From positions 14,716 to 78,715 of the IMG/VR virus record IMGVR_UViG_3300035698_012898: a stretch of DNA of 64,000 nucleotides; one strand, given 5' to 3'. The notes beneath the pieces are model-generated. The model was not told the DNA's origin and searched no databases. It saw nothing but the letters and a program-made list of their open reading frames with translations. Made by a program: the position numbers and the translations under genes. The stretch comes from a virus. Shown one piece after another: positions 11,951 through 44,839 of the stretch (positions are counted from its first letter, which is position 1; each line of letters opens with the position of its first letter).

Positions 11951-14900
11951 TTACCTCTCCGTTCGCCAGTTCAGCTGTTCCAATTCACGAATCGCTTCCG
12001 CTGCTAACGTCCGTATCTGTGTATCGTTCCTTACCTCAGCTACGTTAAGATTTACTTCCTGGTAAATAGTAGTCGGCGAACCTGTTCCACCTCCCCCACC
12101 GATACCGCCACCTATAGGAGAAACAAGCCCTTGCGCTACAGCTTCCTCATGCGTGAGCGTTGTAGTGCCTTGCATAGCAGACAACACGGTTGACTGCCCT
12201 GGCTGCGGATTTAAGGCTGCCCTAAACGCAGACTCCCATACATCGCTTACAGCATCCCATGCCGCTTCGTGTTCTGCTTCTTGTCTTGCTGCCTGCGCCG
12301 CTGCCTCAGATACCCGTAATGCTTCTTGTTCCGGACTACCTAAAGCCGCGAGTTCTCGTGATTCAGATACCCATTCTCTATATGCTGTTGCCGCTTCCCT
12401 TGCTGCATCTATCGCTACTTGTTGTGCAGCTTCTTCCCCAGGACCACCCATAGCGGCTGCTTGTGCTTGTCTTGCTTCTGCCGCTAAAGCTGCAGTAGTA
12501 GTCATTTCTTCTTCAAGATCTGTTACACGTTTTTTTGCGTCTTCTCTTGATTCCCATGCGCCTCGTGCTGTATCTTCTAACTCTTCACGTTTTGCCCTAC
12601 TAGCAGCCGCCCTGCGTTGAGCGCGTTCTTGTTGTGCTCTCACTGACACATTTATATCTTCCACAGCGTCCGTAATTGTAGACACTGCATCCTGCGCAGT
12701 ATCGATCACTGTCTCGGAAGCTCGGATCTCCTCACGTACTAAGGCACCTTCAAGCTCCATTCTTTGTGTTGCCAAGTTCTCTCGTGATAAAGCAAGTTCA
12801 AGCTTAAGGCGTTCTAAGTCCCCTTCACTTTCCGCCATTGCCATCTCAAATTCAATTCTCTTGATCGTATCCAGGCTACGGTCTACTACCTGTTGGAGTC
12901 GAAGTACACCAGCCGCAGCTTCCTTTTGCGCTAAGTCTTCTTCAAGCGCAAGTATTATTTCCGCAATTTCGCCAGAAGCAATAGCCTGCGTAAGTTTAAG
13001 CTCCGCAGCTTCTAGTTCTTTTGCCGCAACCGCCTGAGCAAGACTAAGTATCAACTCAGACATTTCTTTTGCAGCGGCAGCTTCTTCTTTAGCCCTAACC
13101 TTTGCTTCTTCAAGAGCTGCTTCAGCCCTAGCTTCCGCAGCGGCTTTCATCTCTTCAGCAACACGTACATCCTCAGATATTTTAACCTGTTCAAGAACTA
13201 TCCGATCTGCCGCCATCAGAGACAACACTTTAGCCCGCTCAAGTTTAAGCAGCTCAAGTTCCTGTTCATCTGTTGTCATTGCAACTTCAAGGTCGATCCT
13301 CTCAAGCTGTATAGCTCCTAGAGCAATTACACGTTCAAGGGCAAGCTCTGTGGCTTCAACACGCCTCTCAGCAATGTCTTGCTCAAGAGCCTGTATCTTT
13401 TTCTCGGAAGCGCCAGCTACTATCGCCTGGTCAAGCCTAAGTTCCGCCGCCTCAATCGTCTCATTTAGCTTGGCTTGTTCAAGTTCAATTCGTCTTGCTG
13501 CAATCTCCGCTTCTGTAATCTCCTGTTCATGCTGAAGTCGTAATGCCTCTTCAGCAGCCTTAGCGATTTCTTCTGCCAGCTTTTTCGCAGCAGCTATCCT
13601 TTCCTCTTCAATCCGAAGTTCTTCGGCTATAAGTTCTTCACGAATCTTTTGCGCTTTCTCTGCAGCAGCAGCTACTTCTTCCGCCGCCTTTATCGCAGCT
13701 TCGGCAGCAGCAAGGTCACGTTGAATCTTAGCAGTGGCGATCTGCTCTTGTAAGATTGCCAAGTCCAGAAGAAGAAGTTCCTTCTCTTTTTCATCGGTTG
13801 ATAAGGCAATCTCCAGTTCAATACGCCTCTCCTGTAATTCCTTGGTTGCAATAGCGTGGTCATATTGTAGCTGGATTGCTTCTGCTTCTTTCGCCAACAC
13901 CACTAAAGTTAATTTATGAATGGTAGTAGCAGAAGCCTCCGCAGCAATAGCCTGCGCAAGTTTAAGCTGTGCTGCCTCTAGTTCTGTATCGACAGTAGCT
14001 TGGACCAACTCTATTTGCTTAGCAGCTAACGCAGACTCCTCAATCGCTTGGTCATACTTGGTTGTGTCTATAACCGTTGCCGTAGCCGCCGCAGCATCTT
14101 CGGCTGCAAGAGCAATAGCATCTAGAGCAGCAACGCCGTCTGCTTGAAGCTGGCCAAACTTACCGGATAGGTCTGGCGGCACTATCATCTTCATATTCTC
14201 ACCAGTGCCTTCAAGCGTTGCATTGATGCTATCCAACATCTGAAGCATGCCAAGCAGTGATGTTTCAGATAACCCTTCTGGCCCACTCATAATGCTTAGC
14301 GATTGCGTGCCTCCAATGCTCGTTTGCATTTCTGTTGAAAGTACGCCTCCGGCCGCATAGTATTCTTTAAGCATCTGAATTTGGCTAGCATACATCTTCT
14401 GGTACAACGCATACATAGTGTCGGCAAAGTCCACGTTGATCTTGGTCATGTAATCCACACCAGACTGTACCTCAGATACAAGTGCGGGTGAATGCGTTGC
14501 CCACGGGTTAATATACTGCATCGCATCGTAAATGCCTGAGAAGATACCAGTTACCGTAGCAGAGAATCCTTGCCACAGGCTAGCCATGTAGTTCGTGGCT
14601 GACGCAAGACTTGCACCCGCTTGTACATACATAGCATCCATGGTTGTAAAGTCAATGCCAAGCTGTTCAAGGACAGAAGCACTATGCTGTGCGCTGGGCA
14701 AGAAGTCTTTTAAAGCCTCGGCAGCCCGTGGTGTAATCTCTTCTACCTTGGCAGCACCAGCAGCAATAGTATCAACCATATCTTGTACGTCAGAAGCTAA
14801 CACCTCTGGATGTGTCTCTACCAGCCTTTCAAGCATGACAGGAAAGTCTTGTGTAAGATCGTCTACTGTTCTTCCGTGCGCTAAGAGGTTGCCGATGTTA

Positions 14901-17515
14901 GTGTCAAGTTGCATGCGCGCTTCTTGTGTCAAGTTCTTCCAGGAATCTACAAGATTCTGATTCCCTATAAGAATACTCGTACGCGCTTGCTCACCAACCT
15001 TGGCGTATTCTGCGTCTGCGGCAGCCATCATATCCATAGCGGTCAACTTCGCAAGGGCCACCTCTTCTTCAAGGTCCGCCTGCTTAGCCAGTTTCGCTAT
15101 CATGCTATCAATGACCTTCTCTTCAACCTCGCTAAGCTTTAGCTTTAGCCCATGTGCAAGGCGTCGGATAGCCATAAATGCTTCTTGTGTACCGCGCTCA
15201 ACTTCTCCCGTCTCTGCAATCTGCTTCTTTGCCAGTTCCGTTAGCTCAGTACGCTTGGCCATTAGTTCATCGTATTGATCACGAAGAGCATCCGCATACT
15301 TGTTCCAGGTAGCCAGCTCTGCTTGTAAATCTTCCTCCTGTCCTGAAAGATCTTCCTTACGTGCTTGTGCTCGGGCGTCAATGAATTCCTTTTCTGCGCC
15401 GTAACGAACACGGAATAACCGCTGTGCTTCGTCAGACAAAAATTCGTACGCTCTTATCTCTTCCTTCGTTGCACCGTTTATTGTTGCAAGTGCAGCTAAC
15501 CGCACGTCATTCTCAAGCATCTTAATGCTTTGCCACGCCATGCTGATTTGTTCACGTGTTGCCTGCTGGCCAAGCTCCGCAGCAAGTGCTTCTTTAATCT
15601 CTGCTAAATGCTGCTTACCAAGTTTCTTCCGGTTCTCGTTTTCAATCTTAACAAGTTCAGTATATTTTTCTTGTATATCTGTCAGCTTAGAAAGACTGGC
15701 GAACTGCTCATCAGTAATTTCATTCTCTTCTTTGAGCAACGCAATCCGCGCCGTCGTTGCTTCGTTAAGCGAAAGTTCTGTCCCTTCCAATTCATCGTAC
15801 GCATCACGATTTTCTTTTGCTTTCTTTATCAGGATACCAAGAAAACCAACGATAACGGCAAACGCGGCAACAGGTAGGGCACTCGCGCCAGCAATAGCAG
15901 CCATCCCTTTAAGCGCCAACGAAACAAAGCCGCTGAAAGCCACTGAGAGCATACCTGTTATTGAAAGTGCAGCACCGTTTGCTGCAAGCGTCATCCCAGT
16001 AAGTGCGATGGTGATACTATGCAAACCTTGGATTAGTACAGTAAAGGAAATTGCACCCATAGCTATAAAGGCCGCACTGATACCGCGGATACCAACAAGT
16101 ATAAGCGGAAACGCCTTTGGAATTAGAAGGAGGCTTGTATAGATTAGCTTAAGCGCAGCCGGAATATTTCCAAGAAATGTAAGGAACACAGGCCCAACTA
16201 TTACAAGGCTTGAAAGAAGGCCAAAGAACTGACCAAGGACAATATTTACCGAACCGAAAATAAGAAGGCTACCAGCCGCTGTGGCAATCCGATTAATTAA
16301 CTGCTCAAACTCTTCCGGATTCTTCTCAATCCAGGCAGACCACTCATCTAGCTTCTCACGTACCTTACCGATAGCTTCAACGATCTTAGGCATCAGTACT
16401 TCGCCAATTGGTATAAGTGCCGCAACAGCGGCGTTCTTAAACATTGTAATCTGCGACTGTAAAGTCTTATAGCGTTTCTCTGATTCTATAGTAAGTGCTA
16501 TGTTCTCCTCAACGCCCCTATTACCACGTGCTATACTTTCATCCATTGCATCTGCGGATAATGCCATGCGTCCAAACACATCAACCATTCGAGCACCCTT
16601 AAACCCAAGAGTCTCAATAGTTCCTGCCAAATCCCCACCACTTGTCCGGATTTTATTGAGCCCCTGAATAAAAGATGTTACCGTGGCAGCCGCGTCATCC
16701 TTGAAGGACTTCTTGAATTGATCACCAGCCATGCCCGCAATTTTGGCGTATGTTTTCAGGTTTTCCCCGCCTGAAATTACAGCGGTATTCATATCTGTAA
16801 TAAATCGAGAAGCAGCAGTACCTCCTAATTGCGCCTCTAACCCGACACTTGAAAGTGCCGTTGCTATTCCAAGAATATCCCCTTGTGTCATACCGGCAAT
16901 AGTACCTGTCGCAGCAATTCTCGTAGCCATCCGCAGAATATCATTCTCAGTTGTAGCCGCATTGTTACCGAGGTCAACAATAGCAGAACCAAGATTACGA
17001 ACGTACTTCTGATCCATCTGAGTAACGTTAATAAACTTAGCTATCATCAACGCGCCTTCTTCACCAGCAATATTAGTGGAGACGCTAAGGTCTGCAATAG
17101 CTCTGGTAAACTCAACTATACTTTCTTTCTGGATACCAAGCTGGCCTGCTATTTCTCCTATCTTGGCTAACTCATTTGCGGAGACAGGGATTTCTTTTGA
17201 AAGGTTAAGGATAGCTTTACGCATTGCCTGAAATTCAGGCTCGGTTGCTTCGACGGTCTTACGGATGCCTGCGAACGCATCCTCATAATCAATAGCCGCT
17301 TTTGTCCCCGCAACAAGTGGCGCAGCTAAAAGGCCCCCTATCTTCATAGCAGCAATGCCGACTTTTGTAAAGCTCTTGCCGACAGATGCTAACTTGTTGG
17401 AAAACTTATCCAACTGACCGGCCATCTTATCAAGGCCGCCCTTGAACTCCTTGTCATCCGCCATAAACCGTACAACAGCAGTTCCAAGTTCTTTTGCGCC
17501 TCCACCAAAAGCCAT
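11951..17515 (-). CDS. Tail tape measure protein (TP901-type core)
   Basis: YEDAFAGIRKTV, ELAKIGEIAGQLGI, LGSAIVDLGNNAATTE; central hydrophobic region; long helical C-terminus; likely start 17515. Confidence 0.95.
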   Translation of the reverse strand: MAFGGGAKELGTAVVRFMADDKEFKGGLDKMAGQLDKFSNKLASVGKSFTKVGIAAMKIGGLLAAPLVAGTKAAIDYEDAFAGIRKTVEATEPEFQAMRKAILNLSKEIPVSANELAKIGEIAGQLGIQKESIVEFTRAIADLSVSTNIAGEEGALMIAKFINVTQMDQKYVRNLGSAIVDLGNNAATTENDILRMATRIAATGTIAGMTQGDILGIATALSSVGLEAQLGGTAASRFITDMNTAVISGGENLKTYAKIAGMAGDQFKKSFKDDAAATVTSFIQGLNKIRTSGGDLAGTIETLGFKGARMVDVFGRMALSADAMDESIARGNRGVEENIALTIESEKRYKTLQSQITMFKNAAVAALIPIGEVLMPKIVEAIGKVREKLDEWSAWIEKNPEEFEQLINRIATAAGSLLIFGSVNIVLGQFFGLLSSLVIVGPVFLTFLGNIPAALKLIYTSLLLIPKAFPLILVGIRGISAAFIAMGAISFTVLIQGLHSITIALTGMTLAANGAALSITGMLSVAFSGFVSLALKGMAAIAGASALPVAAFAVIVGFLGILIKKAKENRDAYDELEGTELSLNEATTARIALLKEENEITDEQFASLSKLTDIQEKYTELVKIENENRKKLGKQHLAEIKEALAAELGQQATREQISMAWQSIKMLENDVRLAALATINGATKEEIRAYEFLSDEAQRLFRVRYGAEKEFIDARAQARKEDLSGQEEDLQAELATWNKYADALRDQYDELMAKRTELTELAKKQIAETGEVERGTQEAFMAIRRLAHGLKLKLSEVEEKVIDSMIAKLAKQADLEEEVALAKLTAMDMMAAADAEYAKVGEQARTSILIGNQNLVDSWKNLTQEARMQLDTNIGNLLAHGRTVDDLTQDFPVMLERLVETHPEVLASDVQDMVDTIAAGAAKVEEITPRAAEALKDFLPSAQHSASVLEQLGIDFTTMDAMYVQAGASLASATNYMASLWQGFSATVTGIFSGIYDAMQYINPWATHSPALVSEVQSGVDYMTKINVDFADTMYALYQKMYASQIQMLKEYYAAGGVLSTEMQTSIGGTQSLSIMSGPEGLSETSLLGMLQMLDSINATLEGTGENMKMIVPPDLSGKFGQLQADGVAALDAIALAAEDAAAATATVIDTTKYDQAIEESALAAKQIELVQATVDTELEAAQLKLAQAIAAEASATTIHKLTLVVLAKEAEAIQLQYDHAIATKELQERRIELEIALSTDEKEKELLLLDLAILQEQIATAKIQRDLAAAEAAIKAAEEVAAAAEKAQKIREELIAEELRIEEERIAAAKKLAEEIAKAAEEALRLQHEQEITEAEIAARRIELEQAKLNETIEAAELRLDQAIVAGASEKKIQALEQDIAERRVEATELALERVIALGAIQLERIDLEVAMTTDEQELELLKLERAKVLSLMAADRIVLEQVKISEDVRVAEEMKAAAEARAEAALEEAKVRAKEEAAAAKEMSELILSLAQAVAAKELEAAELKLTQAIASGEIAEIILALEEDLAQKEAAAGVLRLQQVVDRSLDTIKRIEFEMAMAESEGDLERLKLELALSRENLATQRMELEGALVREEIRASETVIDTAQDAVSTITDAVEDINVSVRAQQERAQRRAAASRAKREELEDTARGAWESREDAKKRVTDLEEEMTTTAALAAEARQAQAAAMGGPGEEAAQQVAIDAAREAATAYREWVSESRELAALGSPEQEALRVSEAAAQAARQEAEHEAAWDAVSDVWESAFRAALNPQPGQSTVLSAMQGTTTLTHEEAVAQGLVSPIGGGIGGGGGTGSPTTIYQEVNLNVAEVRNDTQIRTLAAEAIRELEQLNWRTER

Positions 17516-21073: not shown

Positions 21074-21745
21074 CTATCCCCCCATTGATATAACCAGCGG
21101 AACATTAAACTGGAAAGGCGTTAACAAGTCATCTACAAACGTAATCCCAGTTGTAATGCCGGCACTGGGAACTGCTCTAGTTGACACACCAGATCTTGAA
21201 GATCGCGTATACGTATACGTGTCAGGAAACCGCTCAGAATCAAACTGACCAAGTTGTTGTGTAGTTCCCGGTATAATCTCCTCTTGCACGAGGAGCACAG
21301 TCGCCTGCTTAATCTCCGGAGGCGTCTCCGTGTAACCCCATGAAATGTCTGCCGAGTAATTAAAGAACGCCGCCTTAGTCCAAATACTGTAATGGTTTTC
21401 AATGGCACGCAGAGATGTATGAATGGAATAATTCTCTGCGTCTACTGCCTCCCCATCGTCTGCAAACGTATCGTCATACGCTTCGCGTTTTGTAATGGAA
21501 TGAATGCTATTGATAGCCCAGAACGTTCTTCGTGCTGTAAAAAGAATGTGCGTTCCATCCCCTTTGAGCGTAATAGTTCTGCGCGTCACCTCAAACCGGC
21601 TTCGTGTAAACCTATCAACCTTTTTGGTGGCCCGCGCAATCGCCAGGGTGAGATAGGCGTCATCATCAGCTGTCCAATGGGCAGGGATCGTGAATGACCC
21701 CAAGAGGTTCTGTACATCCGCTTTTGTTATGTACGCCATAATCAC
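21074..21745 (-). CDS. Head-tail adaptor (SPP1 gp15/HK97 gp6-like)
   Basis: MAYITKADV...AIARATKKVDRFT.SRF...WGY..TPPEIKQAT. Confidence 0.8.
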   Translation of the reverse strand: MIMAYITKADVQNLLGSFTIPAHWTADDDAYLTLAIARATKKVDRFTRSRFEVTRRTITLKGDGTHILFTARRTFWAINSIHSITKREAYDDTFADDGEAVDAENYSIHTSLRAIENHYSIWTKAAFFNYSADISWGYTETPPEIKQATVLLVQEEIIPGTTQQLGQFDSERFPDTYTYTRSSRSGVSTRAVPSAGITTGITFVDDLLTPFQFNVPLVISMGG

Positions 21746-21766: not shown

Positions 21767-22867
21767 TCACTTGTCGTGGCTCACGTCAACAACTTCCATA
21801 TCCCGCAAAACACATAAGAGATTGCGCACCCTGGCGGAATTAGTATGGTATTCAATGACATGCTTTCGCCCGCAATTCCAAATATGATCTGCCACGTTCG
21901 GATGCTCCAATAATTCACGGATCTTTTCAACGCACTCTTCAGGTGAACGATAAGAAACGTATGACTCCCCGTCTACAAAGCCATTCGGGATTACGATCTT
22001 GAGTTCGTCTGCTACCAAACAAGTAACAGCTGCCGTCTCCCAATATCGACACGTATCATATCCAGCACCCCGCACACTGACACCAACCCTACTACGACCC
22101 AAAAGACACAAGTAGTCATTCCAACTTACCCACGGCTTGTTTTCCGGATGTGGAGACAAATGACATGCAATATACGTTTTGTACTCAGCATCGAGCACCC
22201 GTAAAGCTTCGGCAACCTTTGCGCGACTTGGATGTGTCACGCCAAGGAGCATAGATACATCTACTGCACTATCCCGGTGCTCCGCAAACACAGGGGCAAC
22301 ACAATTTGCCGGAACGCTAAAGGGAAATGGGAGCACAGGAACACCCGCAATCGTATCCAGGTTAGACTCTGTTGGGTACTCCCGTTTCAAAACCACAGTT
22401 GGATGCACATCGTTCTTAATCACGTTCAGAACGTTACCTGCTATTCCCCAAGAGTCTTCACCATCATGCAGGACAACAGGTGCACCAGATATTTCTATGT
22501 CTTTAGCAAGTTGCCTATACGCCGTTACTGGACCAACTCTTGCAGACTCAAGAACCACCAATGAAATATCACCGCGCCGCAACATCGCAGAAACAAGATG
22601 AAACTGATCATTCTCTGTTACTGCGAACGGCGTCTGCCCATAGTTTACACCGCATGCATGATGTGGCATCCAAACATAAGAGGATACGGACATAGGGTCT
22701 CGCATACCCCCTATCGGAACAAGGTCCGTACCACCGTGGTACGCCTTCTTAATCGGGAAGTCATATACGTTTGCAGCGCCAACTACCTGACAGAACCCAT
22801 TGAACAAATACGTCGCACCGTAATCCGCCCCAACGTTGGTCAAGATCAATACGTTAGTTCCGGCCAT
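21767..22867 (-). CDS. GT-B glycosyltransferase (Glyco_trans_1_2/CgeB-like C-terminus)
   Basis: VSVRGAGYDTCRYWE...YVSYRSPEECVEKIRELL...EYHTNSARV. Confidence 0.8.
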   Translation of the reverse strand: MAGTNVLILTNVGADYGATYLFNGFCQVVGAANVYDFPIKKAYHGGTDLVPIGGMRDPMSVSSYVWMPHHACGVNYGQTPFAVTENDQFHLVSAMLRRGDISLVVLESARVGPVTAYRQLAKDIEISGAPVVLHDGEDSWGIAGNVLNVIKNDVHPTVVLKREYPTESNLDTIAGVPVLPFPFSVPANCVAPVFAEHRDSAVDVSMLLGVTHPSRAKVAEALRVLDAEYKTYIACHLSPHPENKPWVSWNDYLCLLGRSRVGVSVRGAGYDTCRYWETAAVTCLVADELKIVIPNGFVDGESYVSYRSPEECVEKIRELLEHPNVADHIWNCGRKHVIEYHTNSARVRNLLCVLRDMEVVDVSHDK

Positions 22868-23580
22868 TATTCCGTCCTCCGTAACACGGCGTTAAAGCTA
22901 AAGTTGTTATCCATCGTATTAAACTCAATCCACTCTGCTTTAATGTGCGTCCAAGTATCCAATACACCAAGCGCCCAATCATAAAACTCCTGGGCGCTAA
23001 ATTCTCTCGTATGCGATGGATCAAGAACTCCACGAGGAAGAAATTCCATGTCTGGAATAACAGCACAGAAGCATCCGCCAATACGTAGCAGCAACATCAG
23101 TGAATGTAATACCTCTACTTGATTCTCAAGATGCTCAAATACGTGATTTGAGATCACACCGTTAAAGGTTCCAGGTCGAAATGGGGAGTCCACTCCTGTG
23201 TCCGGACACCACGTCATATGAGGGACACCTTGTCCTTGTTTATAATCAGGATTCCAATTGGCATACTTGTCCGTACCAAACGTAGCAGGCCCATTCACGC
23301 CAGCCGTACCGACACCAAGACAACAACCGCCACCCTCATACCCAAGCTTGATACCCCAATACATATCAAAGGCACGTTGCTGATGCCCAACAAGATTCCC
23401 TTCCTTCCCATACGACCTGTGTTCGTCTGAGACATCCCAGTAATGCAGATCCGGGATAAGTGTTGGTGTCTCAGCACTCCACGGCTGACATGCCTTTCTA
23501 ATAAGATCTGCTGGCATTTCTAATGCCGGCTCAATTCCTTGCCTCGGAATAACTACCTGCCCTCTGCAATCAACAGTCAT
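22867..23580 (-). CDS. Class I SAM-dependent methyltransferase
   Basis: FNGVISNHVFEHL, LLRIGGCFCAVIPD, DPSHTREF; motif I is divergent (LGVGTAG). Confidence 0.75.
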   Translation of the reverse strand: MTVDCRGQVVIPRQGIEPALEMPADLIRKACQPWSAETPTLIPDLHYWDVSDEHRSYGKEGNLVGHQQRAFDMYWGIKLGYEGGGCCLGVGTAGVNGPATFGTDKYANWNPDYKQGQGVPHMTWCPDTGVDSPFRPGTFNGVISNHVFEHLENQVEVLHSLMLLLRIGGCFCAVIPDMEFLPRGVLDPSHTREFSAQEFYDWALGVLDTWTHIKAEWIEFNTMDNNFSFNAVLRRTE

Positions 23581-24553
23581 AACCTAACTCCCTCATGGTG
23601 TCACCACAAACGTCAGCAAAAATCCTATGTTGTTCACTATCCCACTTCTCATAACGAGGAAAGGCAAAACCTGGTGCATTCTCAGGATCTGTCTCGAATC
23701 GTTTAGCCCGCTCTTCCTCTGGCTGTTTATAAAGAGGACCCGCAATAGCACCCAGGTTAAAGGTGGCTTTCTGCTCATCCGTTGCTTCTGGTAGAAGCAT
23801 CGCTAGAACAAGAGTACTCGTCTCCGGTTTATTATAATCCTCTACGTGTATAACAGGTCGCTTTGCTTGCAAAAAGAACTGGTGAATCTTAGCCCAGTAA
23901 GCACATACACGATAGAACCTACTTTCCCGATACTTCACATTGGCATCCTTGCGCATAGGCCAAACACGGGGATACTTACACTCGACTGTATGCGTATTTT
24001 CAAGCCCGTACGTCCTGCCGCATTCTGGTGCAAACGTTTGCCACCACATCGCCTTCTGTACCCAGCGCTTTGCGTCCTTCGTCAAATGAATTGATCGCGT
24101 TGTAATCCCAAGGTCCTCAACCAATGGCCAAAAATCCGCAATGTAACAAGAGCTGTCAAGGAAAAACCCATCCCCTTGAAGAAAGCGCAACATGGCAGAC
24201 CTTAACGTCTCACGGCATTGCACCCACGTTGTGCTTTCCCCTGAATGAAAGTCAGACCACGAAGGTCTGATATGCACCCACGTATCATGGTACATCCTAG
24301 CCAGCAACCCATCCCCTGTATCCCGCTCTGTGTCATTGGCCGCAACCTCTTCTCTGACATTAGCAGACCGTGCGTACTCTTCAGGGAACACTCGCATGTT
24401 ATGCTTAAGGTGTCTAGGGTTGTCCCGGATAGAACCACTGGCGGACTGCCCAATAATCTCATGCCCACTAGGAACACCAATCCCGCCAAACGCTTGAGCA
24501 AGCGTGCGGGTTCCCTGCGAAAATGTACTAAGAGGATAGAGAAATGTCCGCAT
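23570..24553 (-). CDS. Sulfotransferase-like (P-loop fold) protein
   Basis: Likely start 24553; SQGTRTLA...GHE resembles the 5'-PSB region, DSS...IHLTKD resembles the IHLVRD 3'-PB motif; divergent. Confidence 0.5.
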   Translation of the reverse strand: MRTFLYPLSTFSQGTRTLAQAFGGIGVPSGHEIIGQSASGSIRDNPRHLKHNMRVFPEEYARSANVREEVAANDTERDTGDGLLARMYHDTWVHIRPSWSDFHSGESTTWVQCRETLRSAMLRFLQGDGFFLDSSCYIADFWPLVEDLGITTRSIHLTKDAKRWVQKAMWWQTFAPECGRTYGLENTHTVECKYPRVWPMRKDANVKYRESRFYRVCAYWAKIHQFFLQAKRPVIHVEDYNKPETSTLVLAMLLPEATDEQKATFNLGAIAGPLYKQPEEERAKRFETDPENAPGFAFPRYEKWDSEQHRIFADVCGDTMRELGYDC

Positions 24554-24591
24554 ATGCCCTCCTGCCAATCTGAAAATCCCACTCTGCCGTC

Positions 24592-25350
24592 TTAACCATC
24601 TTTGACAGCCACCCATCCTGCGAAGTTCATCCAACGCCAGAAACAATCAACGCTATGAAAACCCGCACCACGTAAGGCTTCCTCATTCCACTTTGCTGTA
24701 AGAGGCACAAGGACACCTTCAAGAGATAACCGCTTCCGTTCAATCTGCGACTCCGTGTAATCATTATCACGCTTCATTCCGTAATACAGATCAACCATCG
24801 TCTGGTCAAGCAAGGCATCTGCGCCAATCACTTTTTCAACAAGAATAAGTACGCCACCAGGTACAGTAGACTTGTATATGTCTGATAGAATCCGAAGCCT
24901 ATGCTCAATAGGTGTAAACTGCAACACGAGAACCGCCAACGTAACACTAGCTTCTTCTTGCTCTAATGGGTATCCAGTCCGTAAATCAAACTTGGATATC
25001 TTTACTAGCCCCTGCTCAATGCCTGCCTTGAACCGCATATTACATGCTGCAAGCATAGGCTCACTTACATCGACACCAATGAACCTATAATCCCTACCAA
25101 GGTGGTGATCTGCACCAAACCGATCCACTAATGGTGCAAGGGCTTCCCCACGACTACACCCCAGATCAAGCATCGTAGTATTAGGTTGCTGAAATCGCAC
25201 CGCCAAGTTGAAGACGGACTTCCGCATAACGGCATATTGCGGAATAGACCGTTGCAACATGTCATCAAAAACACGCGCAACATCACCGTCAAACTTCCAA
25301 GGCCCGTTCGGGTCTACAGCATCTACGATACTATTCTTGTCTACACTCAT
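24592..25350 (-). CDS. cmoA: Carboxy-S-adenosyl-L-methionine synthase
   Basis: WKFD..VARVFDDMLQRSIPQY, LDLGCSRG, LQF, PGGVLILVEK, IERKRLSLEGV (Arg equivalent to E. coli R199), FWRWMNF. Confidence 0.9.
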   Translation of the reverse strand: MSVDKNSIVDAVDPNGPWKFDGDVARVFDDMLQRSIPQYAVMRKSVFNLAVRFQQPNTTMLDLGCSRGEALAPLVDRFGADHHLGRDYRFIGVDVSEPMLAACNMRFKAGIEQGLVKISKFDLRTGYPLEQEEASVTLAVLVLQFTPIEHRLRILSDIYKSTVPGGVLILVEKVIGADALLDQTMVDLYYGMKRDNDYTESQIERKRLSLEGVLVPLTAKWNEEALRGAGFHSVDCFWRWMNFAGWVAVKDG

Positions 25351-25353
25351 GGC

Positions 25354-26172
25354 TTAGAACTCCTCAGCATCTAGCCAGCCGTACAACGCATTCTCTGTCA
25401 CGTCTTGCGTCATCACGCAGAAAATATCCTGCACCCGCTTGTCCACTTCAGACGGCTTGTAGTTCTTACCAATATACCACCCAAGGTATGAATCCGTAGA
25501 AACGGCCAGCTTCTTAAAATACATCTGCATCATAAAGCGTTCAAACGATTCCTGCTGAAGAAACCCCGGATAAACATGGCTATGTTTCCATGGCCCGTAT
25601 CCCAAGTTAACCTCTGGCTTCGGATAAGATAAGACGAAAAGTCCACCATGCACCAGCATCCGCTTCACGTGCGCTACCATGAAGTACGGATTCGATAGGT
25701 GCTCTATAGTTCCCGTGCAAAACGCAACGTCCACACTGTTGTCTTCCCAAGGAAGGGCATCATGAGATGCATCCAGTACTTCAACCTGGAAGTCTATTTT
25801 ATTCTTCTTAACGTTAGCTGTTACGGGCACAGTCTTAGTGCCCACCCATGGCCGAAGCGGACACACAGCCCGATCACAAAGCTCAGAGGCTCGCATATGG
25901 TCACACAAGCGTTCACGTGACAGCGGAGAAATGTCAACTGCATATATTCGTTGGCAACCAATTTCAAGAAGCCGTAAGAGTAAGTTACCTTGTCCGTAGC
26001 CAACTTCAAGACAACGGGTTTGTTCCGTAAGCTGGTACTTGATCAAGCTCGCTAGCTTTCCAACTCCTTGAGCATCTTGGCCAATGCCGCCTGTCCGCGT
26101 AGAATGTGAAATTACGCCAGTTGGTTGTATCTTATGTATATTATGTGCGCCTTGTGGTGCTATCCTTAACAT
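25354..26172 (-). CDS. Class I SAM-dependent methyltransferase
   Basis: LEVGYGQG, YAVDIS, LPWEDNSVD, IEHLSNP, LVHGG. Confidence 0.85.
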   Translation of the reverse strand: MLRIAPQGAHNIHKIQPTGVISHSTRTGGIGQDAQGVGKLASLIKYQLTEQTRCLEVGYGQGNLLLRLLEIGCQRIYAVDISPLSRERLCDHMRASELCDRAVCPLRPWVGTKTVPVTANVKKNKIDFQVEVLDASHDALPWEDNSVDVAFCTGTIEHLSNPYFMVAHVKRMLVHGGLFVLSYPKPEVNLGYGPWKHSHVYPGFLQQESFERFMMQMYFKKLAVSTDSYLGWYIGKNYKPSEVDKRVQDIFCVMTQDVTENALYGWLDAEEF

Positions 26173-26175
26173 AGT

Positions 26176-27042
26176 CTATACCTTTCTAAAGATTGTTTCA
26201 CCTCGGGCATCTGTATCTTCCAAGACAAACCCGCAGCTCACCACAGCCTTTGTCCACTCCCCAAGATGGTGACTATAATGCTCGTGAATCTGTAAGTGAC
26301 TCGGGTCACGCCCATTATCTGAATTGAAGAACGTACAGATGTGTGCAATCGCACCAGGACGCATTGCCTTCGCTAAAGAGGCTACCTCCGCTACCGGATC
26401 TGGGATATGTTCCATCACATCAAGACTACTCACGTAGTCAAACTTAATGTCTGTCGTCTCCCAAAACGGAGGACCGCCGTTCGGGTCTACAAGATAAAAC
26501 GTAACATCAAACTCTCCGTCACTGTACTTGGCCAACCCCATCTGCAACAACGTAAGAAGCTTTGATTGAAAGTCATATAAGCAAACCTTCGCTTGCGGAT
26601 AGTTATCGGCTACACCTAAACCGATACGGCCTACCCGACATCCGTGATCAAGAAACGTGAACTTCCCTTCAGTCTGACCAGCAATACGTTCCAGTAGTGG
26701 AGAAGTATGTTCTGACCCCGCACTTATCAATGGGGCAAGAAATCCTGGACCGGGAGGCAAACCATTCACAGCGATAACCCTAGCCATAAGGTCACCGCCG
26801 TAAAATTCCGCCATAGTCTTTGGCAATAGATTGCCCCCTTGTTCCGTCAGATCATTAAACAAGTTCCGAAATAGCTCTGGCTGATCTCCCCACGTATACT
26901 TTCTTTCTTCCATGATACAGCGGACAGGTTCCAAAAAGGCAGCGTAAGTTCCACCAGTTACTTCTTTCCAATCCGCATCTGTGATGTCTCCAAGTAAACC
27001 AATCATAAGACTGTACACATCCTCTTTAGTTTGTGAACACAC
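26176..27042 (-). CDS. Class I SAM-dependent methyltransferase-like
   Basis: FLDHGCRVG, FDYVSSLDVMEHIPDP, MRPGA. Confidence 0.8.
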   Translation of the reverse strand: MCSQTKEDVYSLMIGLLGDITDADWKEVTGGTYAAFLEPVRCIMEERKYTWGDQPELFRNLFNDLTEQGGNLLPKTMAEFYGGDLMARVIAVNGLPPGPGFLAPLISAGSEHTSPLLERIAGQTEGKFTFLDHGCRVGRIGLGVADNYPQAKVCLYDFQSKLLTLLQMGLAKYSDGEFDVTFYLVDPNGGPPFWETTDIKFDYVSSLDVMEHIPDPVAEVASLAKAMRPGAIAHICTFFNSDNGRDPSHLQIHEHYSHHLGEWTKAVVSCGFVLEDTDARGETIFRKV

Positions 27043-28001
27043 GTACGATTAAGACGGCTTTCCAGCGGAAAGGCACTTTCTTCATACTCTGTTCCATGTG
27101 GAACAAGTGTATTCACGATAGTCTCTGGTATTGGATTAAGATACAACTCTGCTGTATGATCAAACGGATGTATAAATTCAGGAACACCCCACTTTGCGTC
27201 ATAGTGCTTACGAGAATCATCCATCCGCTTTGTCGTATCAATTAAAGCCGCCTGCTCACTAAACGTCCTAGAACATGCATGGTATGTTCGCGGCCACGGA
27301 ATGCCCAATGAAAACATTCCGGCTTTTCCACACCGCGCACCAAAATCCGACTCTTCAAAGAAGGATATAAACTGTTCATCAAAAGGCCCTACATCCTGAT
27401 ATGTACTTGCAAGCGTAGCAAAACCCGATCCATTTGGGGAGAGAGTACGTAATACCTTTGCTAGTTCCCACCCTGATGAAGAAGAAACAAACTTCCGTGG
27501 TGCTGCTGGCGCAAAACCAAAAGTCCTATCCCAAAGCAAAGGAGCCATCGTCGCCAACAGTTGCTTTATCCCCTCCGCAGGCGGCTGTATCGGATTCCAG
27601 TACACACTTCCTACCTTGCCACTTTTCTGATTACTTAGCAGAGCGTACACAGCGCAAGTAAGCCATTGGGGCGGCACAAGCATATCGTTATTGAGAAAAA
27701 CAAAAACACCGCAATCAGTTTTTTGCCCCACACGAGCAATGGAATTCCAAGCAGCAGCAACACCTTGATTCTTCGGATGTATAATGAGACGCGCTCTATG
27801 AGTAGCACACAAATCAGCTAGCTCCTTAGCCTGCTCCGCATCCCAGGATGACCCGTCATCAACGACAACCACCCTGTAGTGTCTATACAACGTGTAATCC
27901 CGAATGCACTCCAGGAGCAGCCGTACATAATAGGTATCATTAAACACAGGGATACCGATACAAACGCGCACCTCCTGGTCATAAAGTTCTTCGTTTGTCA
28001 T
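27003..28001 (-). CDS. GT2 (GT-A) glycosyltransferase
   Basis: IGIPVFN, VVVVDDGS, NQGVAAAWN, FLNND, FFEESD. Confidence 0.92.
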   Translation of the reverse strand: MTNEELYDQEVRVCIGIPVFNDTYYVRLLLECIRDYTLYRHYRVVVVDDGSSWDAEQAKELADLCATHRARLIIHPKNQGVAAAWNSIARVGQKTDCGVFVFLNNDMLVPPQWLTCAVYALLSNQKSGKVGSVYWNPIQPPAEGIKQLLATMAPLLWDRTFGFAPAAPRKFVSSSSGWELAKVLRTLSPNGSGFATLASTYQDVGPFDEQFISFFEESDFGARCGKAGMFSLGIPWPRTYHACSRTFSEQAALIDTTKRMDDSRKHYDAKWGVPEFIHPFDHTAELYLNPIPETIVNTLVPHGTEYEESAFPLESRLNRTCVHKLKRMCTVL

Positions 28002-29017
28002 AGCTCTACTTCTGCCGGTTCTAAGACATTCAGTTTTGCCAGCTTCTTCGGGTCCATTGGCATCGGAATCTCTTCATAAGACTTACCAGTAACGTTAAGA
28101 ACCTTCACCTTCGTCTTTGGGATCGGATGAAGATACTTCTCCGTAACATACGTGAACGGTAGATGGTTTGCTTGCATAACTTTCGGTACGTTCCACGTCT
28201 CAATGAATCGTTGCTTGGATTCCTTAAACCACTGGGCAACCGGTAAATTAGCCCCCTGCTCTACGAATGTCCGTGACATTGCATGGTACGTCCTGGGAAA
28301 AGGCAAGCCAAGGGAGAACCGGCCTAACGCACCACAGCCTACACCAAAGCTACTCTCCTCATGAAAAGCATGCATCTGCTCATCAAAGCCACCGACCTCT
28401 TCGTACACTTCGGGCAACACGGCAAACGCAGTTCCATTAGGAGCAAGGACACGAGCAGTCCCCCAACAGTATGCCAAAAAGAATTCCGTAGGATATGCCT
28501 CCATTGGAAAGTAACCAGTATGCCCATTCAATGTAATAAATGGAAAAGCCGTATGCCAAAGCTGATGAGCCATGATACCCATCTGCTCTTTAATGCTGTT
28601 AGGCGGAATACAAATAGGCTCCCAGTACACGCTACCTATTCGATTGCTTTCTTTGTTCTCCAATAGAGCGTACACACCACAGGCAAGCCATTGCGGAGGA
28701 ACCATTACGTCACTGTTAAGAAAGACAAGAACGTCAGCACCGTCTTTAATACCCTGCTTCGCCAACGTGTTCCAAGAAGCTGCTACACCACGATTTTCTT
28801 TATGACGAATAAAGTGCGTTTTGGTTACAGCACAAAACCGCTCAACCGCAGCAGACCGTTCCTTGATCGGCGACCCATCGTCAACGACCACAATCTGATA
28901 GTTCTCGTACAAGGTGTACCATCGGATCGTGTTGATCAAGAACTGGAGATAATCCACGTCATTATAGACCGGAATACCTATGCTAACCTTTGCATCGCCT
29001 TTGTAGTAATTACTCAT
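27998..29017 (-). CDS. GT2 (GT-A) glycosyltransferase, paralog of the neighbour
   Basis: IGIPVYN, VVVDDGS, NRGVAASWN, FLNSD, GGFDEQ. Confidence 0.92.
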   Translation of the reverse strand: MSNYYKGDAKVSIGIPVYNDVDYLQFLINTIRWYTLYENYQIVVVDDGSPIKERSAAVERFCAVTKTHFIRHKENRGVAASWNTLAKQGIKDGADVLVFLNSDVMVPPQWLACGVYALLENKESNRIGSVYWEPICIPPNSIKEQMGIMAHQLWHTAFPFITLNGHTGYFPMEAYPTEFFLAYCWGTARVLAPNGTAFAVLPEVYEEVGGFDEQMHAFHEESSFGVGCGALGRFSLGLPFPRTYHAMSRTFVEQGANLPVAQWFKESKQRFIETWNVPKVMQANHLPFTYVTEKYLHPIPKTKVKVLNVTGKSYEEIPMPMDPKKLAKLNVLEPAEVEL

Positions 29018-29032
29018 GCGCTTATGTCTTCC

Positions 29033-33711
<4,679 letters not shown>

Positions 33712-33750: not shown

Positions 33751-34767
33751 CTAATCTCCGTACCTGTCTGCAGTCGTATCCGTGTTGACCCCAGACGCTT
33801 TAACGATAGCATCTCCTTCTTCATAAACGAAGTCTGTCCGCATGTGGATAGTACCTTCATCCGTATCACTTCGCGGCACACGCTCCCACTCAACCGTGAG
33901 ATCACGTTGCACCACATAAATGAAGTTGTTCGGATCAGCAAGGTAAACGATTGACCCTGTATCACCAGACGTACCAGTGATGGTCAAATCCTCGGGCATC
34001 AACGGAATCGCAAGCGGCTGAATACCGAGAATCGGCGGCAGCATCCCTGTCTTACGAAGCTGATCACCAAGGTCAGTAGATCGACCACCCCATTCCTCCG
34101 CCAAATCAAGAACAGCATTCGTGTTCATGAACCATCGGAGTTGATTAAGGTTACGCCGCCACTTAGTCGGCATCGTCCGAAGCATATAAACCAGCAACGC
34201 AAACGAAATCCGATGACCAGCGGCATCAACATCATGAACAGCAGAGTCTGCTGCCGTCAAAGTATCAAAGCCATCATTAGTCTTCAACAGGTTAGCTAAA
34301 TCTGTTGCACCTGCGGTCGTGGTATCACCCTCGAAAGCAAGCTGCTCCATGTCATTCGCAACTTGTTTGACGATGGTTCCCATGATCGTATTACGCCCTG
34401 CGGCACCTTCAATGTTATCCTCTTGGACTTCACCTGAGATGTCAATAGCGGATACGGTCTTAACCGTGTTATACGTAACAACAGAATTCGACGGCTTCTT
34501 AGTGTTCGTCGCCGCCGTACTCTCGGTCGCCTTCCCTGTAATTGGCCCTGTAATAGACAGCTTGCTGATATCACCAGCCGGAGCATCAGTACGATGCACC
34601 CGAATGTTTCGCAGCAAAACAGACTCATCTACAACCTGGTCAATAAACCTGTCCGCGTCCTCACGTTTCAGTGATCGCGCATTCAAGTCACTAAGCGTCA
34701 TGGCCGACTTCTGAACAAGGTCTAAACCAAGAGCCTCGGCTAAAAGTTCCATATGTGTTCGCGTCAT
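33751..34767 (-). CDS. Major capsid protein (HK97 fold; PBSX XkdG/P2-like)
   Basis: ADRFIDQVVDESVLL, EVQEDNIEG, ANDMEQLAFEGD, LADPNNFIY; strong SD AAGGAGGTGA. Confidence 0.93.
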   Translation of the reverse strand: MTRTHMELLAEALGLDLVQKSAMTLSDLNARSLKREDADRFIDQVVDESVLLRNIRVHRTDAPAGDISKLSITGPITGKATESTAATNTKKPSNSVVTYNTVKTVSAIDISGEVQEDNIEGAAGRNTIMGTIVKQVANDMEQLAFEGDTTTAGATDLANLLKTNDGFDTLTAADSAVHDVDAAGHRISFALLVYMLRTMPTKWRRNLNQLRWFMNTNAVLDLAEEWGGRSTDLGDQLRKTGMLPPILGIQPLAIPLMPEDLTITGTSGDTGSIVYLADPNNFIYVVQRDLTVEWERVPRSDTDEGTIHMRTDFVYEEGDAIVKASGVNTDTTADRYGD

Positions 34768-41447: not shown

Positions 41448-41491
41448 ACCATTACTCCTCACGTTTTCATCCGCATACACAAGCCTTAGCG

Positions 41492-44588: not shown

Positions 44589-44839
44589 TTTGCAAGCGGC
44601 TTATGCCACCTGCCATTTGCGTCCTGCTTGTATAGAAACGGCAATCCAATTATTTTATCGCAATGAACGCACTGCGCAGTCTCTTCTACCTCGCCGATAA
44701 CACAAGCGTCATATGCCGTACCCTGACCCGTTGCGGACTTTCCACTACCACGAAGTAAAGCTGCACCAAGGTTATCAATAATAACCTTCACAGGAGTACC
44801 TTCTGCCTCTACTGCAAGGACAAACATACGCCTTTTCAT
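44585..44839 (-). CDS. Hypothetical protein
   Basis: Overlap-coupled to both neighbours; CxxC. Confidence 0.55.
   Translation of the reverse strand: MKRRMFVLAVEAEGTPVKVIIDNLGAALLRGSGKSATGQGTAYDACVIGEVEETAQCVHCDKIIGLPFLYKQDANGRWHKPLAK

What the first reader, a model, noticed from the sequence alone, without database searches (positions are those of the whole stretch)
24592..27042. Phage CmoA (carboxy-SAM synthase) among orphan methyltransferases: possible glycan carboxymethylation
Seen: an intact CmoA (RSIPQY, LGCSRG, KR..LE.V) inside the glycan cluster beside three class I methyltransferases, with no CmoB-like or C5-cytosine methyltransferase recognisable in the window. Known: CmoA makes carboxy-SAM from SAM and prephenate, which CmoB uses for tRNA cmo5U. 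Inference: a neighbouring 'methyltransferase' uses carboxy-SAM to put carboxymethyl groups on a sugar, a use I do not know to be described. The 26176..27042 protein has Arg in its Gly-rich SAM motif (LDHGCRVGR), which could accommodate the extra carboxylate; that part is speculative.
Basis: partly seen in the sequence, partly recalled or inferred. Interest (0 to 1): 0.88.

Follow-up and report, generated by a model that had tools for sequence, protein, structure and literature searches.

The report
Carboxy-SAM synthase inside phage glycan operon
A salt-lake phage carries the gene for the enzyme that makes the rare cofactor carboxy-SAM in the middle of its capsid-adjacent sugar-building operon, and two other phages do the same, so phages may put carboxymethyl groups on glycans; no chemistry has been measured.

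Summary
Window 24592-25350 (-) encodes an intact CmoA-family protein: TIGR00740 E 1.8e-50, 33% identity to E. coli CmoA, carboxylate-binding Arg199 and the SAM contacts kept. It lies in a tightly packed 11-gene glycan cassette between the major capsid and head-tail adaptor genes. The 78.7-kb contig is about 75% complete. It has no C5-cytosine methyltransferase (CmoX), no ParB-methyltransferase fusion and no CmoB. Its only Methyltransf_11-type (class I) methyltransferase genes are CmoA and its three neighbours; an MT-A70 adenine methylase lies elsewhere.

The cassette recurs in about 15-20 uncultured phage contigs. The three methyltransferase families are core genes there; CmoA is accessory, seen in this phage and in L095. 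An unrelated, complete 50-kb phage (L049) with no CmoX also nests CmoA among three sugar-type methyltransferases and glycosyltransferases.

The "unknown" gene next to CmoA is a sulfotransferase-like protein.

It is a singleton, though: 12 homologues, including the other CmoA-linked one, keep Gly.

Best reading (about 0.5): Cx-SAM feeds a glycan carboxymethyltransferase that I could not identify. Earlier AI notes of this scan report CmoA in bacterial glycan operons on other DNA.

The parts
24592..25350 (-). CmoA-family carboxy-SAM synthase homologue (252 aa)
   Evidence: TIGR00740 E 1.8e-50; 1IM8 and 4GEK hits; 33% identity to E. coli CmoA. Y39, D62, G64, S66, A70, D89, E164 and R199 equivalents are kept. 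V at the N90 and N132 positions is the norm in its clade, 119 of 120 sequences.
25354..26172 (-). Class I methyltransferase 'MT272', immediately upstream of CmoA with a 3-nt spacer; candidate Cx-SAM user
   Evidence: Methyltransf_11 E 2.7e-14. The family has about 50 members, all from uncultured sources. This copy alone has Gly for the 47/48-conserved Glu in CTETIEH. It has Trp for a Gly that is invariant in 48/48 others; L095 has Asp there.
26176..27042 (-). Class I methyltransferase 'MT288'; the likely true start is Met13 at 27006, an ATGA overlap with the upstream stop. Motif I reads LDHGCRVGR.
   Evidence: Methyltransf_23/12. Only one homologue turned up in the 5.8-billion-protein search; more were found in sister cassettes. 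Arg136 replaces a Gly kept in 12 homologues. The codon is confirmed in three runs.
23570..24553 (-). Sulfotransferase-like protein (327 aa; start revised from 24646)
   Evidence: An AGGAGG site lies 5 nt before the ATG at 24553, and homologues align from residue 32. The protein atlas scores 0.97 to Sulfotransfer_3 clusters. Four of 28 family members hit PF13469. The AF2 model has pLDDT 88. Top Foldseek hits are all sulfotransferases: TPST1/2, CurM ST, Stf0; prob 1.0, E 1.5e-4.
22867..23580 (-). Class I methyltransferase 'MT237', a core cassette gene
   Evidence: Weak Methyltransf_11 hit, E 1.2e-4. Orthologues of 30-46% identity occur in sister cassettes.
21767..22867 (-). GT1-like glycosyltransferase
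   Evidence: Glyco_trans_1_2 E 1.1e-14; conserved in sister cassettes.
27003..28001 (-). GT2 glycosyltransferase; paralogue of the next gene, 44% identity
   Evidence: PF00535 E 9e-15.
27998..29017 (-). GT2 glycosyltransferase
   Evidence: PF00535 E 5e-17.
29033..30040 (-). GDP-mannose 4,6-dehydratase
   Evidence: TIGR01472 439.5 bits, above the cut-off of 415.
30037..33711 (-). 1224-aa multi-glycosyltransferase (GT9-like, GT1/GT4 and GT4 regions), always directly after the capsid gene
   Evidence: Pfam hits; 29-35% identical orthologues in all long sister loci.
33751..34767 (-). Major capsid protein (HK97-type); upstream boundary of the cassette
   Evidence: phrog_1623 E 4.7e-62; PF05065.
21074..21745 (-). 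Head-tail adaptor; downstream boundary of the cassette
   Evidence: phrog_442 E 6e-9.

Best explanation
The phage makes its own carboxy-SAM late in infection, with CmoA using SAM and host prephenate. That cofactor serves the capsid-adjacent glycan cassette: one of the methyltransferase-fold enzymes beside CmoA transfers a carboxymethyl group, instead of a methyl group, to a sugar (or to the glycosylated acceptor) built by the cassette's glycosyltransferases. With the adjacent sulfotransferase-like enzyme, this would make the glycan anionic. What is shown: the gene identities, the conserved CmoA residues, the operon layout, the recurrence of CmoA in glycan clusters, and the absence of known Cx-SAM users in the contig. 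What is inferred: Cx-SAM production, its use on a glycan, the identity of the transferase, and that the glycan decorates the virion. For the transferase, MT272 is favoured slightly because it is coupled to cmoA and is the most deviant member of its family; MT288 comes second.
For: (1) CmoA is intact and keeps the Cx-SAM carboxylate-binding Arg and the SAM contacts. (2) It lies in a same-strand array with spacers or overlaps of -11 to +38 nt, and promoter-like and terminator-like sites are no more frequent than in shuffles. (3) A six-frame Methyltransf_11 search of the 78.7-kb contig finds only CmoA and its three neighbours. There is no PF00145, CmoB, N6_N4 MTase, ParB_N or ParB-MT fusion. (4) In 33 of 44 CmoA-bearing IMG/VR contigs a C5-MTase is present, usually next to cmoA, so this phage breaks the rule. 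(5) A sister cassette, L095, carries Methyltransf_24 + CmoA inserted between its MT272 and MT288 orthologues. (6) L049 is an unrelated, 100%-complete 50-kb phage with terminal repeats. It has no PF00145 and no ParB_N match, and its one weak Methyltransf_23 match falls inside the cluster. Its order is GT2 ... MT24, MT24, CmoA, MT24, GT2+GT1 fusion. (7) Cellular Cx-SAM is about 0.5 uM against about 200 uM SAM in E. coli (PMC4482062), which gives a reason for a bulk user to bring its own synthase.
Against: No chemistry was measured, and I know of no natural carboxymethylated glycan. MT272, MT288 and MT237 are core genes of cassettes that lack CmoA, so they normally work without a phage CmoA. No cationic residue is shared by the two CmoA-linked orthologues. 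The only shared deviations are Gly to Trp or Asp in MT272 and PGG to PGA in MT288, with n = 2. About 25% of the genome is missing and could hold a CmoX or ParB-MT. The phage also has a TET-associated glycosyltransferase and a ParB-like gene, so it probably hypermodifies its DNA. Phage genes are densely packed anyway, so adjacency is weaker evidence than in bacteria.
Confidence: 0.5

Rival explanations
1. CmoA supplies Cx-SAM to a DNA carboxymethyltransferase (CmoX-type C5-MTase or ParB-methyltransferase fusion) encoded in the unseen quarter of the genome. Its place in the glycan operon is an accident of insertion.
For: CmoA+CmoX is the only proven phage use (PMC12783734). 33 of 44 CmoA viral contigs have a C5-MTase, and most of the rest have a ParB-MT fusion beside cmoA. 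The contig is about 75% complete. The phage has other DNA-modification genes: TAGT, a ParB-like protein and MT-A70.
Against: In the known systems the transferase lies within a few kb of cmoA; here 78.7 kb hold none. TAGT is absent from all 44 CmoA-bearing viral records searched (and from the three sister-cassette records), so it is not part of that system. This reading explains neither L095 nor the complete CmoX-less genome L049.
Confidence: 0.17
2. CmoA is an auxiliary metabolic gene that raises host Cx-SAM for the host's own CmoB (tRNA cmo5U34), tuning translation of phage late genes.
For: CmoA's canonical role is tRNA modification. No phage-encoded consumer has been identified with certainty.
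Against: This gives no reason for repeated placement inside glycan clusters in three phages. The closest CmoA relatives in MAGs are not next to an E. coli-type cmoB. The host is unknown.
Confidence: 0.1
3. The CmoA homologue does something other than feed a transferase. It might drain SAM or make Cx-SAM as an inhibitor of SAM-dependent host defences, catalyse a different reaction, or be a recently acquired passenger gene.
For: Its score is below the TIGR00740 equivalog cut-off. CmoA is accessory within the cassette lineage.
Against: All cofactor-binding residues are conserved as in the CmoX-linked clade. The ORF is intact and identical in contigs from runs of several years. A stoichiometric need for prephenate makes a SAM drain inefficient (inference).
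Confidence: 0.1

Closest known systems
CmoA-CmoX(-CmoY) DNA 5-carboxymethylcytosine system of Synechococcus phage S-B43 (Yang et al., Nat Commun 2025, PMC12783734)
   Same: A phage-encoded CmoA homologue makes Cx-SAM for a phage-encoded transferase. The CmoA here belongs to the same broad clade as the CmoX-linked viral CmoAs.
   Different: The contig has no C5-MTase, no asparagine-synthetase-like ligase next to cmoA and no ParB-MT. The neighbours are glycosyltransferases, sugar-nucleotide enzymes, small-molecule-type class I MTases and a sulfotransferase-like protein.
E. coli CmoA/CmoB tRNA cmo5U34 pathway (PDB 4GEK, 4QNV; PMC3663124, PMC4482062)
   Same: The synthase fold and the Arg199/Glu164/Asp62/Ser66 residue set.
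   Different: Only 33% identity, and below the equivalog cut-off. No CmoB: the neighbours lack the CmoB N-terminal domain and score at most 20 bits against TIGR00452.
TglE/TglF (3-thiaglutamate) and MccS/MccB-CTD (microcin C-like) carboxymethylation pairs (reviewed in PMC10491745)
   Same: CmoA homologues recruited outside tRNA metabolism and paired with a dedicated methyltransferase-fold carboxymethyltransferase in one gene cluster.
   Different: The acceptors there are a peptide thiol and a peptidyl-cytidylate. Here the context points to a glycan, and the transferase is not identified.
Mycobacteriophage virion glycosylation (Che8, Rita; Freeman et al. 2023, as cited in PMC11256854)
   Same: Phage-encoded glycosyltransferases thought to decorate capsid proteins with a glycan shield.
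   Different: This cassette is much larger (11 genes, 12.9 kb) and sits between the capsid and adaptor genes. It adds three methyltransferases, Gmd, a sulfotransferase-like gene and CmoA. No isolate phage in INPHARED carries its multi-GT or MT272 genes.

Membership tests
CmoA (carboxy-SAM synthase) | Full-length sequence homology to biochemically or structurally defined CmoA | tested here: met
   1IM8 E 3.6e-35 and 4GEK E 3e-32 over residues 15-250. E. coli K-12 CmoA: 33% identity, E 3e-40.
CmoA (carboxy-SAM synthase) | Score above the curated NCBIfam equivalog cut-off (TIGR00740, 193.3 bits) | tested here: not met
   171.9 bits. The model is an equivalog for the tRNA pathway enzyme. The whole clade that holds the CmoX-linked phage CmoAs is similarly distant from E. 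coli, so this argues against 'tRNA-pathway orthologue', not against the fold or chemistry.
CmoA (carboxy-SAM synthase) | Arg199, which salt-bridges the S-carboxymethyl carboxylate (PMC3663124) | tested here: met
   Arg207 aligns with Arg199. Arg is present in 110 of 120 clade members.
CmoA (carboxy-SAM synthase) | SAM-contact residues Tyr39, Asp62, Gly64, Ser66, Asp89, Asn90, Asn132 and conserved Glu164 | tested here: met
   All are kept except Asn90 and Asn132, both Val. Val or Ile stands at those two positions in 119 of 120 relatives, including 23 of 24 CmoX-linked ones.
CmoA (carboxy-SAM synthase) | Makes Cx-SAM from SAM and prephenate | not testable with these tools
   Needs an enzyme assay with LC-MS.
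CmoB (tRNA carboxymethyltransferase) | CmoB-specific N-terminal domain with Lys91, plus Tyr200 and Arg315; TIGR00452 above 275 bits | tested here: not met
   The best match in the contig is MT272 at 15.8-20 bits, over the generic Rossmann segment only.
CmoX (DNA C5-cytosine carboxymethyltransferase) | C5-MTase fold (PF00145) with the SPPC motif and Arg350 | tested here: not met
   The six-frame search found no PF00145 match in 78,715 bp. The control search hit 9 of 14 genomes. About 25% of the genome is unseen.
ParB-methyltransferase fusion next to cmoA (proposed, uncharacterised) | A protein of about 500 aa with a ParB_N domain and a class I MTase domain beside cmoA | tested here: not met
   The fusion is present in L074, L079, L037, L053, L014 and L082 and in 12 MAG loci. 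tblastn against this contig gives nothing below E 0.1, and ParB_N finds no hit.
Sulfotransferase (for 23570-24553) | Sulfotransferase fold | tested here: met
   The AF2 model has pLDDT 88. The top Foldseek PDB hits are all sulfotransferases, prob 1.0, though TM is only 0.37-0.53.
Sulfotransferase (for 23570-24553) | PAPS-binding 5'-PSB (xGTTxL) and 3'-PB (RDxxD/xxxS) motifs | tested here: inconclusive
   The N-terminal SQGTRTL and the IHLTKDAKRWVQK segment align with GRSGS.FL and HLVRDGR.VVRS of distant members that hit PF13469. This protein itself has Lys for the Arg and gets no Pfam hit.
Phage virion-glycosylation cassette | GT genes within the structural module, conserved across related phages | tested here: met
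   The order MCP, multi-GT, GT2, MTs, GT1-like, adaptor recurs in L085-L087, L096, L099 and others.
Phage virion-glycosylation cassette | Glycans attached to virion proteins | not testable with these tools
   Needs virions, with glycoprotein staining or mass spectrometry.

The most novel reading that the evidence does not exclude
Phages use carboxy-SAM to O-carboxymethylate, and in this phage also to sulfate, the glycans they build on their virions. That would be a fifth acceptor class for Cx-SAM after tRNA, peptide, peptidyl-nucleotide and DNA. It would also be the first natural carboxymethyl sugar made this way, evolved at least twice in phages from ordinary sugar methyltransferases.
Probability: 0.4. 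Interest if true: 0.85.

Novelty: new variant of a known kind. Interest (0 to 1): 0.68.

Why it matters
Cx-SAM is a rare cofactor with four known natural acceptors. A glycan acceptor would extend SAM-analogue chemistry to carbohydrates and predict a new class of carboxymethyltransferases hidden among genes annotated as methyltransferases. It would also show that phages can tune the charge of a virion glycan coat, which bears on adsorption, on stability in brine and on immune or defence evasion. The comparative set makes the idea directly testable. It holds cassettes with and without CmoA, and a complete CmoX-less phage with three paralogous sugar MTases around cmoA. The test is to express CmoA with each neighbour and look for +58 Da.

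Tried and rejected
- **The look-up of encoding contigs closed.** I used the search for related loci instead.
- **Wasted fold.** The single-sequence fold of the 358-aa ORF failed (pLDDT 33). The structure quota was then spent on the sulfotransferase-like protein, so MT272 and MT288 could not be modelled. The position of Arg136, Gly154 and Trp195 relative to the SAM methyl is untested.
- **Single-protein scans.** IMG/VR pattern scans for MT272, MT288 and the sulfotransferase-like protein found nothing. The alignment-based scan did.
- **PDB profile search.** The profile search for the sulfotransferase-like family gave only noise.
- **Independent acquisition of CmoA.** The quick tree separates the CmoAs of this phage and L095. 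The AU test does not reject their monophyly; the constrained tree was even better, p-AU 0.97. I make no claim either way.
- **Arg136 as an assembly error.** Rejected, because contigs of three runs agree.
- **TAGT as part of a CmoA system.** Rejected: TAGT is in 0 of the 44 CmoA-bearing viral records searched, and in none of the three sister-cassette records.
- **Metagenome records.** The genome search could not reach them.
- **Isolated phages.** None carries the multi-GT or MT272 genes. megablast of the cassette against phages found no match.
- **RNA.** No RNA holder was listed for the stretch.
- **Literature.** Searches linking Cx-SAM to glycosyltransferases or to natural O-carboxymethyl polysaccharides found nothing relevant.
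Full report
**The thing itself.** The window is bases 14716-78715 of a 78,715-bp linear IMG/VR viral contig that CheckV rates about 75% complete. Almost all genes lie on the minus strand. ORF 24592-25350 (-) is a 252-aa CmoA-family protein. It scores 171.9 bits on TIGR00740 (E 1.8e-50; equivalog cut-off 193.3) and E 3.7e-35 on PRK15451. It matches the solved structures 1IM8 (E 3.6e-35) and 4GEK (E 3e-32). It is 33% identical to E. coli K-12 CmoA over residues 16-250 (E 3e-40).

Byrne et al. (PMC3663124) name the residues that contact S-carboxymethyl-SAH in E. coli CmoA. Tyr39, Asp62, Gly64, Ser66, Ala70, Asp89, Glu164 and the carboxylate-binding Arg199 are all kept here. Asn90 and Asn132 are both Val. 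Val or Ile stands at these two positions in 119 of 120 relatives, including CmoAs that sit next to a CmoX gene. Arg199 is kept in 110 of 120. I therefore read the gene as a bona fide Cx-SAM synthase homologue of a divergent, largely non-proteobacterial clade. Its best database relatives are 62-66% identical. Activity was not tested.

**Its surroundings.** The gene sits in an 11-gene, 12.9-kb cassette between the HK97-type major capsid gene and the head-tail adaptor. The capsid gene is 33751-34767 (phrog_1623 E 4.7e-62, PF05065); the adaptor is 21074-21745 (phrog_442). In order of transcription the cassette holds:

| Coordinates (-) | Gene | Evidence |
|---|---|---|
| 30037-33711 | 1224-aa protein with GT9-like, GT1/GT4 and GT4 regions | |
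| 29033-30040 | GDP-mannose 4,6-dehydratase | TIGR01472 439.5 bits, above cut-off |
| 27998-29017, 27003-28001 | two GT2 paralogues | |
| 26176-27042 | MT288 | |
| 25354-26172 | MT272 | |
| 24592-25350 | CmoA | |
| 23570-24553 | 327-aa protein (see below) | |
| 22867-23580 | MT237 | |
| 21767-22867 | GT1-like glycosyltransferase | |

Spacers run from an 11-nt overlap to 38 nt. MT272 and CmoA are 3 nt apart. Promoter-like and terminator-like sites are no more frequent than in shuffled sequence.

The ORF listed as 23570-24646 really starts at the ATG at 24553. An AGGAGG lies 5 nt upstream, and all 29 homologues found among 1.8 billion representatives align from residue 32. A language-model search points to sulfotransferase clusters (0.97). 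Four of 28 family members hit Pfam Sulfotransfer_3 (best E 1.8e-6). An alignment-based AlphaFold2 model has pLDDT 88. Its top PDB matches are all sulfotransferases: TPST1/2, CurM and OLS sulfotransferase domains, Stf0; prob 1.0, E from 1.5e-4, TM about 0.4-0.5. So CmoA's downstream neighbour is sulfotransferase-like and is not a candidate Cx-SAM user. The PAPS-loop motifs are only partly canonical.

**Known partners are absent.** The only proven phage use of CmoA is to feed CmoX, a C5-cytosine MTase homologue with a carboxylate-binding Arg, which makes 5-carboxymethylcytosine in DNA (PMC12783734). A six-frame search finds no PF00145 in the contig. The best CmoB hit is 15.8 bits against a cut-off of 275. 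There is no TET, no N6_N4 MTase and no ParB_N. There is also no homologue of the ParB-methyltransferase fusions that flank cmoA in other phages. A Methyltransf_11 six-frame search finds exactly four genes: CmoA and its three neighbours. The contig's other methyltransferase gene, an MT-A70 adenine methylase at 44836-45432, belongs to another family.

By contrast, 33 of 44 CmoA-bearing IMG/VR contigs carry a C5-MTase, 6 of the 7 that are at least 90% complete. Most of the rest carry a ParB-MT fusion beside cmoA, and the same fusion lies in 12 of 70 MAG loci. This phage breaks both patterns, with the caveat that a quarter of its genome is unseen.

**Comparative genomics of the cassette.** An alignment of MT272 with its 24 database homologues retrieved three IMG/VR loci and about 25 metagenome loci with sister cassettes. 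tblastn shows a shared plan: MCP, multi-GT, GT2, MT237, GT1-like, MT272, MT288, SDR epimerase/dehydratase, adaptor. So the three methyltransferase families are core genes of a lineage of uncultured siphoviruses. They normally occur without any CmoA in the cassette, and the three IMG/VR contigs have none anywhere in the sequence held. This weakens the idea that they are intrinsically Cx-SAM enzymes.

The accessory genes vary:
- The sulfotransferase-like gene is in L093 and L108.
- Gmd is in L093 and L101.
- A Methyltransf_24 sugar-type MTase is in L093 and L095.
- CmoA is in this phage and in L095.

In L095 an overlapping Methyltransf_24-CmoA pair (CmoA 55% identical to ours) is inserted between the MT272 and MT288 orthologues.

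**An independent case.** L049 lies in G024, a 50,241-bp genome with direct terminal repeats that is rated 100% complete. It has no PF00145, no ParB_N, and only one weak Methyltransf_23 match outside Pfam's cut-off, which falls inside the cluster. There cmoA sits in the order GT2 ... MT24, MT24, CmoA, MT24, GT2+GT1 fusion. Its proteins show no BLAST similarity to those of this cassette.

So three phage gene clusters, two of them unrelated, place cmoA among sugar-type methyltransferases and glycosyltransferases. One of them lies in a complete genome without any known Cx-SAM consumer. Whether this phage and L095 acquired cmoA once or twice cannot be told. The quick tree separates them, but an AU test does not reject a clade (p 0.97).

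Motif I of MT288 reads LDHGCRVGR, with codon CGG at 26635-26637. Contigs of three runs from three salt-lake studies cover it without a difference. But the middle Gly of GxGxG is kept in all 12 homologues, including the CmoA-linked L095 orthologue, which reads LDHGCGNGR. The equivalent residue of CmoA, Ser66, hydrogen-bonds the ribose and not the carboxymethyl group (PMC3663124). The Arg is thus a singleton of uncertain meaning, one nucleotide away from Gly. It cannot be called a Cx-SAM signature. It cannot be dismissed either, because in CmoB the discriminating Lys91 packs against the first Gly of motif I (PMC4482062).

MT272 of this phage is the most deviant member of its family:
- Gly replaces the Glu conserved in 47 of 48 others, in CTETIEH.
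- Trp replaces a Gly invariant in 48 of 48 others. This is the one conserved column where the L095 orthologue also deviates non-conservatively, to Asp (both also have Tyr for a 42/48 Phe).

In MT288 both CmoA-linked copies read PGA instead of PGG. In L095 and L049 the gene next to cmoA is a Methyltransf_24 enzyme, a family absent from this cassette. The transferase may therefore differ between lineages.

**Mechanism and rivals.** My best reading, at about 0.5, has three steps:
1. CmoA raises Cx-SAM, which is scarce in cells: about 0.5 uM against about 200 uM SAM in E. coli (PMC4482062).
2. A neighbouring methyltransferase-fold enzyme then carboxymethylates the cassette's glycan.
3. The sulfotransferase-like enzyme adds further negative charge.

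That the glycan decorates the virion is inferred from the position in the head module and from the mycobacteriophage precedent (PMC11256854, citing Freeman et al. 2023).

The rivals are:
- A CmoX or ParB-MT gene in the missing quarter of the genome (about 0.17). The phage does carry a TET-associated glycosyltransferase (PF20691, E 1.4e-47) and a ParB-like gene next to the portal. That family is absent from all 44 CmoA-bearing viral records searched.
- Support of host tRNA cmo5U (about 0.1).
- A non-donor or passenger role (about 0.1).

**Novelty.** Natural Cx-SAM acceptors described so far are tRNA (CmoB), a peptide thiol (TglF), a peptidyl-cytidylate (MccB-CTD) and DNA (CmoX) (PMC10491745, PMC12783734). 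Full-text searches found nothing that links Cx-SAM to glycans. Earlier AI notes of this scan report cmoA next to sugar-methyltransferase-like genes in bacterial glycan operons on other DNA. I did not test those claims; here the pattern is shown for phages. I rate this a new variant of a known kind. It is interesting but unproven.

Noticed in passing
window 39911-41495 (-): A TET-associated glycosyltransferase (PF20691 E 1.4e-47; phrog_842, beta-glucosyl-HMC-alpha-glucosyltransferase) is followed by a 248-aa ParB-like protein (phrog_620), directly beside the portal gene (41492-43399). The contig has no TET, C5-MTase or hydroxymethylase. The phage probably glycosylates a hydroxymethyl base whose source is not seen.
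   Followed up: partly
window 23570-24553 (-); L093:531-1517; L108:702-1688: A sulfotransferase-like family with about 29 members in 1.8 billion representatives, and no Pfam hit for this copy. It recurs as an accessory gene of the phage glycan cassette. Phage-encoded glycan sulfation would itself be unusual.
   Followed up: partly
L049:3294-11027: A complete 50-kb phage genome (direct terminal repeats, no C5-MTase, no ParB) carries cmoA flanked by three Methyltransf_24 paralogues, a GT2 and a GT2+GT1 fusion. It is the cleanest test bed for a Cx-SAM-dependent sugar transferase.
   Followed up: partly
L074:6222-7799, L079, L037, L053, L014, L082; MAG loci L140, L143, L148, L159, L164, L169, L174, L191, L202, L204, L205: A protein of about 500-540 aa that fuses a ParB_N domain to a class I methyltransferase lies next to cmoA in many CmoX-less phage contigs and MAG loci. 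It may be a second, uncharacterised DNA carboxymethyltransferase type, as earlier notes of this scan also say.
   Followed up: partly
window 30037-33711 (-): A 1224-aa protein with three glycosyltransferase regions (GT9-like, GT1/GT4, GT4) is conserved directly after the major capsid gene in every long sister contig (29-35% identity). It is absent from all isolated phages in INPHARED.
   Followed up: partly
contig bases 7846-11053 (outside the window; L088): A MoxR-type AAA+ ATPase (bpMoxR, AAA_5) is paired with a VWA-domain protein. A DUF6744 protein and an SNF2-type helicase lie nearby.
   Followed up: no
window 44836-45432 (-): An MT-A70 family (N6-adenine) methyltransferase, the only methyltransferase gene found outside the glycan cassette.
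   Followed up: no
window 24613-24648: A 36-nt stretch at the 3' end of cmoA (coding FWRWMNFAGW) is matched at about 85% by contigs of other organisms in the same salt-lake runs. This reflects the strongly conserved CmoA C-terminus.
   Followed up: no
L001 (Erwinia phage Y3, record 12641-15232): In Erwinia jumbo phages cmoA is followed by an asparagine-synthase-like gene and an oxygenase, with no C5-MTase within 6 kb. This is another context that may differ from the S-B43 system.
   Followed up: no
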